From Oscillospiraceae bacterium (lineage in GTDB: Bacteria > Bacillota > Clostridia > Oscillospirales > Oscillospiraceae), in NCBI GenBank assembly GCA_017519005.1, contig JAFWTG010000060.1:1-57613 (forward strand): a stretch of 57,613 bases of DNA. The letters are read 5' to 3'. The notes under the pieces were generated by a model. That model was not told the origin of the DNA and ran no database searches. It saw nothing but the letters and a program-made list of their open reading frames with translations. Below, one piece after another: positions 39,114 to 46,484 of this stretch. The number at the start of each line of letters is the position of its first letter. The stretch's first letter is position 1. The position numbers and the translations under genes are program-made.

Positions 39114-42100
39114 ATGAACACAGCGTTCAAAACTCTGCTGCGGCGGATTGCCCGGACCCGGAAGCGCTCCGCGCTTCTGCTGGCTGCCGCCGCCCTGTCC
39201 TGTCTCTGTCTCTTTGCCGTCTCTCCCTCCGCGCGCGCCTGGACCAAGATCCCCGAAAGCGATCTGGAGGCCCTGACCCCGGAGCAGCGGACGCTCCTGG
39301 AGGCCATGCCCGAGGGGCTGAGATGCCTGACCTATCTGAACCTGTACGGCGCGTCGGCAAGCGAAAGCTATCAGTTCTTCCAGCGCAACTCGCCGTACTG
39401 CAATCTGATTACGAGAAATCATCTCTATTCGGCGGACGACGTGCTGGAATTCGTGTATTCCGGCAGCGGCCCGGACGCCGGCACCGCCGAGGGCCGCGCC
39501 CAGGCGGAGTTCCTGCAGGAGCTCTACTACGTCTACGCCGGGATCTATGCCTCTTATGACGACTTCATGGCCGGTCACTTCATGAGCTACGGCGAATACC
39601 TGCAAAACAAGAGCCTTTCCGAGCTGGAGGCCGCCCGCTCCTGGCACGACAGACGGGAGCAGGCGTCCATGACCAGCGATTGGAAGCACCGCGAATGGAT
39701 TCAGTGGGGCCAGGTATTGGACGCCTGGATCGTCTATCGCGGCGGAACGCCGGAGTCCCAGATTCCGGCGGGCCAGCGGGAGCTGCAGGAGGCCTACGAG
39801 TCAGAGCCGTATCCGGAGCTGACGGTAGCGCAGCAGGCGCTTCTGGACGCCATGCCCTCCGCTTTCCGGCCCCTCACTTACACTGCCGTCACCGGCACCA
39901 CCGGTCTGAGCTGGTTCCGGGAGAATTCCGGCCTGAAGCGGCGTGTGATCCTGGAATATTGGCCCATGACGGAGGACGAGCTCGGCGCGGCCTACGCCTC
40001 GATGGTGCAGGCCGGAAACGAGCAGAGCCAAGAGGGACAGGCGCTCTTGCAGCTCTACTTCCTGCGCCACGACGCCTACGCCCGCATGACGGTGCTCGGT
40101 CAGCGGGTCTACCTCTCCGACAGTGAAGCCTTCCACCGCCACAGCGGGACCGAGAGCTGGGAGTACGGCAGCGTCATCGTCGGGATCGAGGCCTGGATCG
40201 ACCAGCGCTCCGGGACCGACGCGGCCCTGCGGGGCGAGTTCAACGACTTGTTCGCAGCGGCGGAGGCCTGGATCGACTATTACGCGGCGCTCCAGGAGGA
40301 GCTGGCCGCGGCGGAACGGGCCGCGGCGGAGGCCGCCGCCCGGGAATGGGAAAACCGACAGGAGCAGCCCAACCCCAACTATGACCCGAAGCCTACGGCG
40401 ATTCCCAACGATTTTCCCCTGACCGTCGCCGAAAAGGCCTTGCTGGAGGCCCTGCCCCGGCGCTATATGCCCGCCGCCATGGCCTTCCTCTATCCCAATC
40501 TGACGGCAGAGCGCTTCTTCGGCAGCTATACGGAGGCGCGGTGGCAATCTGACGCCGCGCAGCTTCTGGCGCTGAACGTTGCCGGGCTGGAGGCCGAATA
40601 TCTGCGGCTGGTGCGGCTGAACAACGCCGGGACCATAACGGAGGCTGAGGCGAACCGTCTGGAGCTCTGCGTGGAGCTGCTGCTGTTCCGCTATCGCACG
40701 GAGCAGCGGAAGGGCTTCGGCTATCTTCAGATCGCGGCCGGCACCAACGGGAACGCGGATTCCGTCTCTTATACGTATTATTCCGACTACATTCTGATGG
40801 ACAAGACCCCGGCGCAGCTGCGGGCGGACGCGGCCCGGGACGACGCGGACAATCCGGACGGAAAGCGCCTGTACCGGACCCACAGCGCCGCCATGCGGCG
40901 GGCGATTGCCGACTACCTGGAGCACAGGGACGACGCCGGCACCGTAGAGCTGAGCATGGACGACACGGTTCGGCGCATCTATGACGCCACCATGCCGGAT
41001 ATGCGGGTTTACGCCTGGCTGGTCGCCACGGAGCTCGCCCCGGCCGACGACCTGAACTACGCCATGATGCCGGAGCAGCTGGCCGGATATCTCTACGACT
41101 ACGGCACGGGAGCCCAGGCCGCCGCATCGAAGATTCTGGGCTTCTACGGCCGGAAGCCCTACCACAACACAAGCCACCCGAGCTTTTACGTCGCCGCGGA
41201 CAGTCAGCTTACCGCGATCGTCAACTCCGTAAACCAATACACGCCGGAGGCCATCGCCGAGGCGCAGCATATTCTCTGGCACAGACGCGGCGAATTTTAT
41301 TCGCAAAACGGCCGGTATCACAGCGCTCTCGGCGCCATGAACACAGCCCAGCTTCAAAGCTGCCGCGCCGGTGCGGAGGCGGACTACTACGCCGAAACCG
41401 ACGCCGGCAGAATCGCGGAGCTCCGCAACTGGATGGAGCAAATCGACGCCTGGCTGGCGCTTCGAAGGAAGCAGAACGGCGGACAGGGCGGCGGCTCCCA
41501 GAGCGGTGAGGGTGGGCTCCCGCAGCCCTCCGAGGAGGAGGCGATTCCGGCCGATCGGCGGATCTACGTTCTGGAGACCGCCACCGGACGCATGCCCGGG
41601 CAGAAGGTGGAATTCTTCCGGATCGTCTATACGACACCGGAGGGAGATACCCGAACGCAGTACGTATTCCCATCGGAAAACACCCTGCAGGAGGGGTATC
41701 ACGCAGCTCTTGCCGCGACCGATGACGGCGGACTCGCCCAATGGGTGTACAGCGTGGCGGGTTACACGGCGGAAGCCCCCGATTCGGTCAAGGCCCTGCA
41801 GAGCTGGCACACCGACCAGTTCCTCTTCACCGCGGACGCGCAGATTGCCTCGGTGAATGAGATCCAGGTCTTTGCGCGGCACGACGGCAACGGCGACCGG
41901 AACGAGTGGACCTGCGCCGGTATCCGTCTTTATCGGATGGAGTATCTTCGCGGTCTCGGCAGATACGGCTTCTTCTCCTCCGAGTATTATCTGGATTATT
42001 CCGGAGCCCTGCTTGCCGAGCTGAAGTTTGACGACGAGGGCCGGCAGGATCTGAGCTGGCGCGGCGGCGACCGGCTGTTCCGCTTCGGCGGCCCCAAGGG

Positions 42101-46484: not shown

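What the first reader, a model, noticed from the sequence alone, without database searches (positions are those of the whole stretch)
39114..46484. 2456-aa secreted array of PLAT/LH2-like modules encoded directly after virB4
Seen in sequence: a clear Sec signal peptide. Next comes an N-terminal ~800 aa with three related ~190-aa helical units, each starting LT(P/V)(E/A)(Q/E)..LL(E/D)A(M/L)P (about 39270, 39820, 40420). From about 41555 to 45800 there are at least five ~110-130-aa modules with PLAT-like strings. Examples are Y.I.L.TDDVEMAGT.S.IYL.L.Y.D..G followed by ...DEWQMRNLTIQTV, and TGDDDSGSKNQFYFQLLF followed by F.AGTVETFTI...L..VRV...KLKIDSITVV. The protein ends in a Pro/Thr/Glu-rich tail with no LPXTG sorting motif. 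Established knowledge: PLAT/LH2 beta-sandwiches (lipoxygenases, clostridial alpha-toxin C-domain, polycystin-1) mediate membrane or lipid association and are uncommon in bacteria. Gram-positive conjugation systems use large surface adhesins such as PrgB. Inference: this is a membrane-binding adhesin, tether or distal component of the T4SS-like apparatus. Taken together with the PI-kinase-like giant, it hints that the target is a lipid membrane, possibly of a eukaryotic or wall-less cell. That last step is speculative.
Basis: partly seen in the sequence, partly recalled or inferred. Interest (0 to 1): 0.7.

Follow-up and report, generated by a model that had tools for sequence, protein, structure and literature searches.

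The report
PLAT-module giant partnered with VirB4
This 2,456-residue exported protein carries about seven lipid-binding-type (PLAT) beta-sandwich modules and belongs to an undescribed family that, in at least 191 rumen and gut Clostridia species genomes, is encoded next to the VirB4 motor of an unusual type IV secretion-like gene cluster wherever that could be checked, so it is most likely the cluster's outward-facing contact part.

Summary
The ORF at 39114-46484 (+) starts 21 nt after the virB4 stop and has a strong Shine-Dalgarno sequence. It has a Sec-type leader, a helical N-terminal region of about 770 aa, a beta-rich core of about 1,470 aa and a Pro/Thr/Glu/Ala tail. There is no C-terminal LPXTG.

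Pfam finds one PLAT domain (aa 1477-1567). It is marginal in this protein but above threshold in relatives. Six further modules are homologous to one another. Their merged profile finds lipoxygenase PLAT domains first in the PDB, and Foldseek matches PLAT domains with probability 1.0. The PLAT-like modules are interleaved with unrelated modules, so this is not a pure array.

The core defines a family of at least 325 clusters at 50% identity. It occurs in 191 GTDB species genomes, including isolates of Pseudobutyrivibrio and Ruminococcus. In 60 of 60 testable loci a long VirB4 gene lies upstream. VirD4, a VirB6-like protein, three small conserved membrane or secreted proteins and a STAS/SpoIIE partner-switching set also recur. 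No relaxase, integrase or wall hydrolase was found.

Best reading: a Sec-exported, non-covalently held extracellular subunit of this machine that engages target surfaces. Membrane binding and a eukaryotic or wall-less target remain speculation.

The parts
39114..46484 (+). Gene for the 2,456-aa exported PLAT-module protein (stop codon included)
   Evidence: ORF. Start ATG 39114 with a GGGAGGG Shine-Dalgarno sequence. P0001 is 99% identical and 2,456 aa.
39114..39239 (+). Sec-type signal peptide, aa 1-42, predicted cleavage after SARA
   Evidence: Sequence. Hydrophobic stretch with Kyte-Doolittle 2.6. 144 of 154 full-length family members have an N-terminal hydrophobic stretch.
39246..41549 (+). 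Subfamily-specific helical N-terminal region, aa 45-812: unit 1 (45-232), unit 2 (233-432), unit 3 (433-640), unit 4 (641-812)
   Evidence: U1 to U2 99.2%, U1 to U4 91%, U1 to U3 only the first 38 residues. AF2 helical with pLDDT 80-90 for aa 43 to about 640. Present in only about 10 family members. No significant PDB fold match.
41547..41969 (+). Module A, aa 812-952, PLAT-like type 1. In typical family members it follows the signal peptide directly
   Evidence: HHalign A-C 96%, A-E 96%. Family core starts here.
41970..42269 (+). Module A', aa 953-1052, unrelated beta-rich module
   Evidence: No HHalign link to any other module. No Pfam hit.
42261..42653 (+). Module B, aa 1050-1180, PLAT-like type 1 (weaker)
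   Evidence: HHalign B-G 94%, B-C 90%, B-E 89%.
42798..43187 (+). Module C, aa 1229-1358, PLAT-like type 1 (Y.I.L.TDDVEMAGT... DEWQM.NLTIQTV)
   Evidence: HHalign C-E 98%, C-A 96%, C-G 95%. Family consensus hits Pfam PLAT at 17.2 bits, E 0.0085.
43188..43499 (+). Module C', aa 1359-1462, unrelated module
   Evidence: No links. No Pfam hit.
43500..43859 (+). Module D, aa 1463-1582, the Pfam PLAT/LH2 domain (GDDDSGSKNQFYFQLLF ... KLKIDSITVV). It is the best conserved stretch of the family
   Evidence: PF01477 22.6 bits against cutoff 23. 24-35 bits in relatives. Consensus 28.9 bits. Most invariant columns of alignment A4 lie here.
43941..44381 (+). Module E, aa 1610-1756, PLAT-like type 1
   Evidence: HHalign E-C 98%, E-G 97%, E-A 96%.
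44382..44957 (+). Module E', aa 1757-1948, unrelated beta region that holds the internal LPATG
   Evidence: No links. LPATG at aa 1822.
44949..45299 (+). Module F, aa 1946-2062, PLAT-like type 1 (weaker)
   Evidence: HHalign F-C 83%, F-G 81%.
45351..45689 (+). Module G, aa 2080-2192, PLAT-like type 1. It is the most confidently modelled of the PLAT-like modules
   Evidence: HHalign G-E 97%, G-C 95%, G-B 94%, G-D 32%. pLDDT about 75-85.
45690..45983 (+). Module H, aa 2193-2290, possibly Ig-like
   Evidence: Weak Big_12 hit, 17.3 bits.
45981..46373 (+). Module I, aa 2290-2420, alpha/beta C-terminal module. Present in about 45 family members and tandemly repeated 2-4 times in some
   Evidence: Occupancy. 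Repeats in P0012, P0014, P0019. AF2 pLDDT about 76.
46329..46481 (+). Pro/Ala/Glu/Thr-rich tail with no sorting signal
   Evidence: Composition P14 A11 E10 T9 of 51 residues. No LPXTG or transmembrane segment.
34693..39093 (+). Long VirB4-like ATPase (1,466 aa) directly upstream. It has hydrophobic N-terminal segments and an acidic repeat-rich C-terminal extension of about 450 aa
   Evidence: NCBIfam VirB4_plasma (Mbov_0397 family) 533.8 bits against cutoff 590; Pfam P-loop_TraG, DUF87. 59-79% identical to the VirB4 of distant loci.
31891..34644 (+). VirB6-like polytopic membrane protein (917 aa)
   Evidence: NCBIfam MMCAP2_0566 121.5 bits (cutoff 90). Mbov_0396 55.6 bits (below its cutoff of 70). 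Conserved in 55 of 81 loci.
30823..31812 (+). Conserved 329-aa protein with a signal peptide and a C-terminal membrane anchor
   Evidence: Sequence. Conserved in 55 of 81 loci.
29423..30826 (+). 467-aa secreted protein, conserved in a subset of loci
   Evidence: Sequence. 18 of 81 loci.
26880..28919 (+). VirD4/TraG-type coupling protein (679 aa), first gene of the cluster
   Evidence: Pfam T4SS-DNA_transf 184 bits, TraG-D_C 114 bits. 50 of 81 loci.
46522..47709 (+). Conserved downstream partner (395 aa; likely ATG at 46534) with an N-terminal membrane anchor
   Evidence: Sequence. The family lies directly downstream in 62 of 81 loci.
47747..48043 (+). STAS anti-sigma-antagonist-like protein
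   Evidence: Pfam STAS 49.9 bits. A STAS gene is present in 67 of 80 GTDB loci, and in 30 it lies between virB4 and the PLAT gene.
48069..54328 (+). Two membrane sensor PP2C phosphatases (Reg_prop / Y_Y_Y / SpoIIE)
   Evidence: Pfam. SpoIIE and HATPase_c_2 genes recur near related loci.

Best explanation
The gene encodes the large extracellular subunit of a distinct type IV secretion-like machine. The machine's VirB4 and VirB6-like protein are most similar to those of the mating channel of mycoplasma ICEs. It is found in rumen and gut Clostridia, on contigs that look chromosomal, and appears signal-regulated.

Proposed mechanism. The protein is exported by Sec and its leader is cleaved. It has no sortase signal or membrane anchor. 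It is therefore probably held at the cell surface by protein-protein contacts with the small anchored proteins that always accompany it: the 395-aa family downstream and the 329-aa family upstream. Its fixed chain of about 12 beta-rich modules would form an elongated stalk that projects through the wall. Seven of these modules are PLAT-type sandwiches, a fold that docks onto lipid bilayers or partner proteins in lipoxygenases, lipases and alpha-toxin. Through them the stalk would engage the surface or membrane of a target cell, so that the VirD4/VirB4/VirB6 channel can deliver its cargo.

Shown: export signal, module anatomy, PLAT homology, family size, and obligatory linkage to VirB4. Inferred: surface retention, stalk shape, membrane or target binding, and the nature of the cargo.
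For: Linkage.
- VirB4 lies upstream on the same strand in 60 of 60 GTDB loci with enough upstream sequence, immediately in 57.
- The same order holds in six metagenome contigs with homologues at 44-85% identity and in three with distant members.
- Conserved neighbours are VirB4 (69 loci), the 395-aa family (62), a 200-aa family (56), the 329-aa family (55), the VirB6-like protein (55) and VirD4 (50), out of 81 loci.

Export without anchoring. 144 of 154 members have an N-terminal hydrophobic leader, 0 of 154 have a C-terminal LPXTG and 1 of 154 has a C-terminal hydrophobic stretch.

Structural-subunit behaviour. The roughly 1,470-aa core is collinear in about 150 representatives. It evolves about twice as fast as VirB4 in the same genome pairs: 27-53% identity against 59-79%. 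This fits an exposed but constrained part.

PLAT identity.
- Pfam scores are above threshold in relatives and for the module D consensus.
- Six modules are inter-related.
- The merged consensus hits PLAT at 21.9 bits.
- The merged profile's best PDB hit is the PLAT domain of 11R-lipoxygenase, followed by that of 5-lipoxygenase.
- Foldseek gives probability 1.0 to the PLAT domains of pancreatic lipase-related proteins, alpha-toxin and lipoprotein lipase.

Machine identity. VirD4; VirB4 and the VirB6-like protein.
Against: - There is no experimental or structural evidence for surface location, stalk shape or lipid binding.
- AlphaFold2 confidence is low (mean pLDDT 55 and 62). The tool does not report which module produced the Foldseek PLAT matches.
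- Six of the seven PLAT assignments are below Pfam's threshold.
- PLAT domains also mediate protein-protein contacts, so lipid binding does not follow from the fold.
- No VirB8-like protein, wall hydrolase or relaxase was recognised, so it is not shown that the cluster forms a working transfer channel.
- About half of the loci with related VirB4 genes (mostly 53% identity or less) lack this protein and encode other giant proteins instead. The PLAT protein is therefore not indispensable to the wider machine type.
Confidence: 0.55

Rival explanations
1. It is a secreted toxin or effector rather than part of the machine. In this reading the PLAT modules dock a released protein onto target membranes, as in clostridial alpha-toxin, and the neighbouring T4SS-like genes are co-regulated but functionally separate.
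For: The protein has a Sec leader and no anchor. Foldseek and the PDB profile search match the alpha-toxin and lipoxygenase PLAT domains. The helical N-terminal add-on of unknown function is restricted to one subfamily, which suggests a swappable head.
Against: Pfam, NCBIfam and PDB sequence searches find no catalytic or pore-forming domain anywhere in the 2,456 aa. The core is collinear across distant families and always adjacent to virB4, which is unusual for a toxin. A Sec-exported protein does not need a T4SS.
Confidence: 0.15
2. It is a conjugation adhesin of a mobile element, functionally like PrgB or the mycoplasma CDS14 lipoprotein. Its only role would be to aggregate donor and recipient bacteria before DNA transfer.
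For: The cluster has VirD4, VirB4 and a VirB6-like protein. VirB4 is closest to the mycoplasma ICE type. In that system a surface lipoprotein starts mating, and the channel is thought to be the CDS5-CDS19 set (PMC6030558). One MAG carries three divergent copies of the locus, as mobile elements can.
Against: No relaxase, integrase, transposase or replication gene was detected in the 57.6-kb window. None appears among the gene families conserved around 80 loci. No tRNA gene lies in the window. The core is absent from 72,556 plasmid records and 50,697 phage records. A partner-switching regulator set is conserved beside the cluster. The protein has no LPXTG and no known adhesin domain.
Confidence: 0.2
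3. It is a general cell-surface or S-layer-like structural protein of these Clostridia, and its position next to virB4 is operon hitch-hiking.
For: It is a large, beta-rich, exported protein. Foldseek gives low-probability matches to tandem Ig-like surface arrays and to an S-layer protein.
Against: Linkage to VirB4 is 60 of 60 across Lachnospiraceae, Oscillospiraceae, Acutalibacteraceae and Ruminococcus. No SLH, cell-wall-binding or dockerin domains were found.
Confidence: 0.05

Closest known systems
PLAT/LH2 domain (Pfam PF01477), as in lipoxygenases, pancreatic and lipoprotein lipases, and the Clostridium perfringens alpha-toxin C-domain
   Same: Module D scores above the Pfam threshold at family level. 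The other six modules give consistent sub-threshold PLAT hits. The fold search matches these very domains.
   Different: Here there is no attached enzyme. Seven copies sit in one chain, interleaved with unrelated modules. The context is a secretion machine. Ca2+ or lipid binding is untested.
LOXHD1 and polycystin-1 (eukaryotic multi-PLAT or PLAT-bearing membrane-associated proteins; recalled from memory, not tested)
   Same: Several PLAT sandwiches are used as a non-enzymatic scaffold close to a membrane.
   Different: LOXHD1 is a cytoplasmic chain of 15 consecutive PLAT domains. This protein is bacterial and exported, and its PLAT modules have diverged so far that they are recognisable only by profile comparison. 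No sequence relationship beyond the domain was found.
PrgB / aggregation substance and other surface adhesins of Gram-positive conjugation systems
   Same: Both are large exported proteins, encoded within a VirB4/VirD4 cluster of a monoderm bacterium and built largely of beta-sandwich modules.
   Different: This protein has no LPXTG anchor (0 of 154), no polymer-adhesin domain, and only a 0.15-probability fold match to the PrgB Ig domains. Its module order is fixed and conserved rather than variable.
Mating channel and CDS14 surface lipoprotein of mycoplasma ICEs (ICEA of M. agalactiae; PMC6030558)
   Same: VirB4 and the VirB6-like protein are closest to the Mbov_0397 and MMCAP2_0566 families of these elements. 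In that system a dedicated surface protein starts donor-recipient contact.
   Different: VirB4 scores below the equivalog cutoff (533.8 against 590). No homologue of the PLAT protein was found in plasmid records, which include Spiroplasma plasmids carrying that VirB4 type. The hosts here are walled Clostridia. No DDE transposase was found. A partner-switching regulator set is attached.
Relaxase-less, chromosomal MPF-FATA-derived T4SS of Patescibacteria (PMC12102498)
   Same: It is a monoderm-type VirB4 cluster on the chromosome without a recognisable relaxase, taken there to indicate use for something other than conjugation.
   Different: The phylum and the VirB4 lineage differ. That paper's abstract does not mention a PLAT-bearing partner or STAS/SpoIIE regulators; only its outline was read.

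Membership tests
PLAT/LH2 domain (PF01477) | Sequence score at or above Pfam's gathering threshold (23 bits) | tested here: met
   For module D: 22.6 bits in the window protein, just under the threshold. Relatives score 24.1-34.8 bits and the family consensus 28.9 bits. 8 of 9 close homologues hit PLAT. NCBI names member MDO4732966.1 'PLAT/LH2 domain-containing protein'.
PLAT/LH2 domain (PF01477) | The same for the six type 1 modules (A, B, C, E, F, G) | tested here: inconclusive
   All scores are below threshold: C consensus 17.2 bits; merged A+C+E consensus 21.9 bits (plus ATS3 15.5 bits); merged C+E 17.3 bits. The merged profile's top PDB hits are lipoxygenase PLAT domains, E 0.029 and 0.19. 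The HHalign link from D to G is only 32%.
PLAT/LH2 domain (PF01477) | Beta-sandwich fold of about 110-130 residues that superposes on solved PLAT domains | tested here: met
   Foldseek probability 1.0 over 129-178 columns, rmsd 3.5-9.5 A, to the PLAT domains of 2ppl, 1bu8, 2pvs, 1olp, 1ca1 and 6oau. Caveat: the model's mean pLDDT is 55, and the tool does not say which module matched. Module G is the most confidently modelled of the PLAT-like modules.
PLAT/LH2 domain (PF01477) | Binding to membranes, lipids or partner proteins | not testable with these tools
   Needs liposome or cell-binding assays.
Sortase-anchored Gram-positive conjugation adhesins (PrgB type) | C-terminal LPXTG motif followed by a hydrophobic segment and a charged tail | tested here: not met
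   0 of 154 family members. The target ends in a P/T/E/A tail. Its single LPATG at aa 1822 is internal.
Sortase-anchored Gram-positive conjugation adhesins (PrgB type) | Recognisable adhesin domain plus an Ig-like stalk | tested here: not met
   No Pfam or NCBIfam adhesin domain. The Foldseek match to the PrgB Ig domains (8beg) has probability 0.15.
Type IV secretion / conjugation gene cluster of monoderms (MPF-FATA-like) | VirB4 ATPase in the cluster | tested here: met
   VirB4_plasma 533.8 bits, CD1110 family 142 bits, P-loop_TraG 67 bits. VirB4 is adjacent in 60 of 60 loci.
Type IV secretion / conjugation gene cluster of monoderms (MPF-FATA-like) | VirD4-type coupling protein and VirB6-like channel protein | tested here: met
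   T4SS-DNA_transf 184 bits. MMCAP2_0566 121.5 bits, above its cutoff of 90.
Type IV secretion / conjugation gene cluster of monoderms (MPF-FATA-like) | Relaxase and other DNA-processing or integration genes (needed to call it conjugative) | tested here: not met
   None among the window ORFs scanned with Pfam, part of them also with NCBIfam. None among the families conserved around 80 loci. Several ORFs have no annotation, so an unrecognised relaxase is not excluded.
Type IV secretion / conjugation gene cluster of monoderms (MPF-FATA-like) | VirB8-like protein and peptidoglycan hydrolase (VirB1-like) | tested here: not met
   No Pfam or NCBIfam hit in any cluster protein of the window, and no Pfam hit in those of the isolate locus L063.
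Mycoplasma ICE VirB4 (NCBIfam NF045975, equivalog) | Score at or above the curated cutoff (590 bits) | tested here: not met
   533.8 bits. It is the closest named family but not a member.

The most novel reading that the evidence does not exclude
The whole cluster is a previously unrecognised secretion machine derived from the monoderm T4SS. It would consist of VirD4, a long VirB4, a VirB6-like protein, three small anchored proteins, the PLAT-module giant and a STAS/RsbW/SpoIIE partner-switching set. It would be non-conjugative, chromosomal and switched by signals, and it is widespread in rumen and gut Clostridia. In this reading the PLAT chain is the distal element that docks onto the lipid membrane of a target cell (another bacterium, a rumen protozoan or fungus, or host epithelium). 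Large leaderless neighbours such as the 2,665-aa protein at 16206-24203 would be the translocated effectors.
Probability: 0.2. Interest if true: 0.85.

Novelty: new variant of a known kind. Interest (0 to 1): 0.62.

Why it matters
Monoderm type IV secretion systems have no known counterpart of the outer-membrane core and pilus of Gram-negative systems. How their channel reaches across a thick wall to a target cell is an open question.

This work identifies a large, conserved, exported protein that is genetically tied to one VirB4 lineage. It occurs in at least 191 species of abundant rumen and gut Clostridia, and cultured isolates carry it. That gives a concrete and testable candidate for the missing extracellular part.

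The attached partner-switching regulators and the absence of recognisable DNA-processing genes suggest the machine may do something other than conjugation in commensals that matter for ruminant and human gut ecology. The closeness of its VirB4 and VirB6-like protein to those of mycoplasma ICEs may also bear on where the mycoplasma mating channel came from.

Tried and rejected
- Self-comparison with BLAST, and HMM or HHalign windows built from only the 9 close homologues, found no repeats in the beta region. The repeats appeared only with the 172-sequence alignment.
- A second word-indexed homologue search with the alignment found fewer proteins than the first. The exhaustive HMM search was needed to find the family.
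- The first genome scan, with patterns from close homologues, found nothing. The scan with a family-wide alignment found 191 genomes.
- Profile searches of both halves of the protein against PDB sequences found nothing.
- The fold search of the N-terminal half gave no significant match, so the helical region remains unassigned.
- AlphaFold2 with 7-8 sequences gave low-confidence models.
- Pfam on single-module consensus sequences gave no PLAT hit for A, B, E, F or G.
- The PLSDB plasmid and INPHARED phage collections hold no homologue of the core.
- Five literature searches found no paper linking PLAT proteins, or STAS/SpoIIE regulators, to VirB4 clusters. The 'Hodor' megaplasmids of gut Bacillota (bioRxiv 10.64898/2026.02.21.707213) were considered and set aside. 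They have Rep_3, Par and MOBH-like genes and sortase modules, none of which were seen here.
- The idea that the protein is a generic Ig/Big adhesin was rejected, as was the idea that linkage to virB4 is coincidental.

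
Full report
THE OBJECT

The window has about 63% G+C. The open reading frame 39093-46484 on the + strand is the longest on that strand. The likely start is the ATG at 39114. It lies 8 nt after a GGGAGGG Shine-Dalgarno sequence and 21 nt after the stop codon of the upstream gene. The 99%-identical database protein P0001 is also 2,456 aa long. All residue numbers below count from this start.

The N-terminus has a basic stretch, a hydrophobic core and an A-x-A site (SARA|W), the pattern of a Sec signal peptide. No dedicated predictor was available. The last 51 residues are 86% Pro, Ala, Glu and Thr. There is no C-terminal LPXTG and no C-terminal hydrophobic segment. One LPATG at residue 1822 is internal.

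ANATOMY

Searching Pfam with the whole protein gives a single marginal hit: PLAT/LH2 at residues 1477-1567, 22.6 bits against a cutoff of 23. NCBIfam gives nothing. Eight of nine close homologues show the same PLAT hit.

The word-indexed search of 5.8 billion protein clusters found only nine relatives, all from metagenomes. An exhaustive HMM search with residues 1225-2420 found 325 representatives of 50%-identity clusters, 260 of them below E 1e-30.

Mapping these relatives onto the target gave three results:
- The family core is residues 815 to about 2290. It is present in about 150 of 172 sequences.
- A typical member is a signal peptide followed directly by this core (1,500-1,900 aa in total).
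- The helical region, residues 43-812, exists in only about 10 close relatives. The C-terminal module, residues 2290-2420, is present in about 45 and is repeated two to four times in some.

With only the nine close homologues, no internal repeats were detectable in the beta region. With the 172-sequence alignment, profile-profile comparison shows six modules that are homologous to one another, at 81-98% probability for most pairs. They are A 812-952, B 1050-1180, C 1229-1358, E 1610-1756, F 1946-2062 and G 2080-2192. Module D (1463-1582), the Pfam PLAT hit, links to G only weakly (32%). Five other modules (A', C', E', H, I) match nothing else in the protein.

IS IT PLAT?

Module D. Relatives score 24-35 bits and the family consensus scores 28.9 bits. 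NCBI names one member 'PLAT/LH2 domain-containing protein'.

The six type 1 modules. All sequence evidence is below threshold, but it points the same way:
- The C consensus scores 17.2 bits against PLAT.
- The merged A+C+E consensus scores 21.9 bits against PLAT and 15.5 bits against ATS3. From memory, ATS3 is a PLAT-clan family; this was not verified.
- A merged A+C+E+G profile was searched against 177,635 PDB sequences. Its best hit is residues 20-111 of 11R-lipoxygenase, which is that protein's PLAT domain (E 0.029). The PLAT domain of 5-lipoxygenase follows (E 0.19).

AlphaFold2 models built from the shallow alignments are poor (mean pLDDT 55 and 62). Even so, the C-terminal model matches the PLAT domains of pancreatic lipase-related proteins, alpha-toxin and lipoprotein lipase with Foldseek probability 1.0. 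The tool does not report which module matched. Module G is the most confidently modelled of the PLAT-like modules.

My conclusion is one secure PLAT domain and six probable, highly diverged ones. The remaining modules are not PLAT. Module H shows a weak Ig-like hit.

The helical N-terminal region is modelled with pLDDT 80-90 up to about residue 640 but has no significant fold match. Units 1 and 2 are clear repeats. Unit 3 shares only the opening motif. A fourth stretch matches the back half of unit 1.

CONTEXT IN THE WINDOW

The following genes lie on the + strand between 26880 and 47709:
- a VirD4/TraG coupling protein (26880-28919);
- a 164-aa protein;
- a secreted 467-aa protein;
- a 329-aa protein with a signal peptide and a C-terminal anchor;
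- a 917-aa VirB6-like protein (MMCAP2_0566 family, above cutoff);
- a 1,466-aa VirB4 (closest to the mycoplasma-ICE Mbov_0397 family, 533.8 bits against cutoff 590);
- the target;
- a 395-aa protein with an N-terminal anchor.

A STAS protein and two Reg_prop-SpoIIE phosphatases follow. A histidine kinase and a response regulator are encoded divergently upstream.

No relaxase, integrase, transposase, replication protein, VirB8-like protein or wall hydrolase was detected among the ORFs scanned in the window. No tRNA gene is present.

CONTEXT ELSEWHERE

A family-wide alignment recovered relatives in 191 GTDB species-representative genomes; 80 loci were kept. They come from Lachnospiraceae, Oscillospiraceae, Acutalibacteraceae and Ruminococcus, mostly rumen and gut MAGs. 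Cultured Pseudobutyrivibrio sp. YE44 and Ruminococcus sp. FC2018 are among them.

- In all 60 loci with more than 4.5 kb of upstream sequence, VirB4 lies upstream on the same strand. It is immediately upstream in 57.
- Clustering of neighbouring ORFs shows a conserved set out of 81 loci: VirB4 (69), the 395-aa family (62), a 200-aa family (56), the 329-aa family (55), the VirB6-like protein (55), VirD4 (50), an RsbW-like kinase (24) and SpoIIE (22). No DNA-processing family is in this set.
- A STAS gene is present in 67 of 80 loci, and in 30 it lies between virB4 and the PLAT gene.
- In the isolate locus L063 the genes form one tightly packed operon that is almost free of Pfam hits.
- VirB4 is 59-79% identical between genome pairs whose PLAT cores are only 27-53% identical.
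- The core is absent from the plasmid and phage collections.

The reverse test was also run. Of 57 metagenome loci that carry a VirB4 relative and have enough downstream sequence, 29 have the PLAT core. The loci without it mostly have VirB4 at 53% identity or less, and other large genes follow there, for example 2,910 aa in L158 and L160. The PLAT protein is therefore the partner of one VirB4 sub-lineage, not of the whole clade.

INTERPRETATION

Shown:
- the protein is exported and unanchored;
- it is a collinear multi-module protein with PLAT-type sandwiches;
- it is obligatorily co-encoded with a VirD4/VirB4/VirB6 cluster.

Inferred:
- it is the extracellular subunit of that machine;
- it is held by the small anchored partners;
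- it forms a stalk whose PLAT modules engage a target surface or membrane.

Three observations favour a machine part over a free toxin or a variable adhesin: the fixed module order across families, the faster but constrained evolution relative to VirB4, and the lack of any enzymatic domain.

The alternative that it serves only as a mating adhesin of a mobile element remains open. Mycoplasma ICEs, whose VirB4 is the closest named relative, also depend on a dedicated surface protein (PMC6030558). Against that alternative stand the lack of mobility genes, the absence from plasmid records and the conserved partner-switching regulators. These point instead to a resident, signal-controlled system, comparable to the relaxase-less T4SS described in Patescibacteria (PMC12102498).

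NOVELTY

Five literature searches found no description of this family or of a PLAT-VirB4 link. The only name found in any database is an automatic one. I rate the finding a new variant of a known kind: a monoderm T4SS-type cluster with a new, conserved extracellular component and an unusual regulator set.

Noticed in passing
window 34693-39093 (+): The VirB4 is unusually long (1,466 aa). Its N-terminal 70 residues hold two hydrophobic segments, possibly a fused VirB3-like part. About 450 C-terminal residues are acidic and carry repeated DPWS..(F/W)(G/D) motifs. Related loci also have 1,270-1,452-aa VirB4 proteins, whereas the more distant clade has proteins of about 890-960 aa.
   Followed up: partly
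window 47747-54328 (+); loci L007-L089: A partner-switching set is conserved beside the T4SS-like cluster: a STAS protein, membrane sensor PP2C phosphatases with Reg_prop/Y_Y_Y or 5TM-LYT domains and, in other loci, an RsbW-like kinase. STAS is present in 67 of 80 loci and often lies between virB4 and the PLAT gene. No sigma factor was seen nearby, so the STAS protein may act on the machine itself.
   Followed up: partly
window 16206-24203 (-): This 2,665-aa protein has no signal peptide and no Pfam or NCBIfam hit. Two of its regions (aa about 890-1280 and about 1820-2130) resemble genes encoded near the T4SS-like clusters of other genomes (L011, L013, L036, L050, L066, L071, L153, L158, L160, L166). 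It could be a cargo candidate.
   Followed up: partly
L158 12380-21109; L160 12408-21149; L167: In a sister VirB4 clade (46-53% identity) the gene directly after virB4 is not the PLAT protein but another giant of about 2,910 aa. A further giant of 2,320-2,400 aa lies upstream. 'A giant exported gene after virB4' may be a general rule of this machine type, with interchangeable families.
   Followed up: partly
window 31891-34644 (+): After its membrane domain, the VirB6-like protein has a low-complexity tail of about 450 aa with repeated units such as ..R.DSL.NQSVYSAFSRSEHSD.. and KLPPSGKQQ.PGS.
   Followed up: no
window 8560-16101 (-): Eukaryote-like signalling proteins lie upstream: a 1,418-aa protein with WD40 beta-propeller repeats and an LRR-Roc-COR (ROCO) GTPase with a possible HNH end. 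The ROCO reading frame appears split or overlapping (ORFs 14422-16101 and 13115-16060).
   Followed up: no
window 7495-8463 (+): A SIR2_2 / AbiH-like protein, a possible anti-phage defence gene, lies next to a NUDIX NADH pyrophosphatase (6635-7465).
   Followed up: no
L010, L011, L015 (one MAG, CAMVTO01): One uncultured Clostridia genome carries three divergent copies of the PLAT-gene locus. L015 is the closest GTDB relative of the window protein and the only GTDB locus with a trace of the helical N-terminal region.
   Followed up: no
P0012, P0014, P0017, P0019 (family members): The C-terminal alpha/beta module (target aa about 2250-2415) is tandemly repeated two to four times in some relatives and absent in most. 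It behaves as a variable distal end.
   Followed up: partly
window 44577-44591 (aa 1822-1826): An internal LPATG lies within a conserved ELPA.G.DSF stretch. It is far from the C-terminus and lacks the hydrophobic and charged tail of a sorting signal, so it is probably not a sortase site.
   Followed up: partly
window 26796-26824 (+): The only + strand sigma-70-like promoter match in 26000-45900 lies in the divergent gap between the response-regulator gene and the virD4 start. This fits a single long operon from 26880 onwards. The number of matches is not above chance.
   Followed up: no
window 30823-31812 (+): The conserved 329-aa anchored protein gives a weak hit to the Ca2+-stabilised adhesin repeat (NF033510, 17 bits against cutoff 50).
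   Followed up: no
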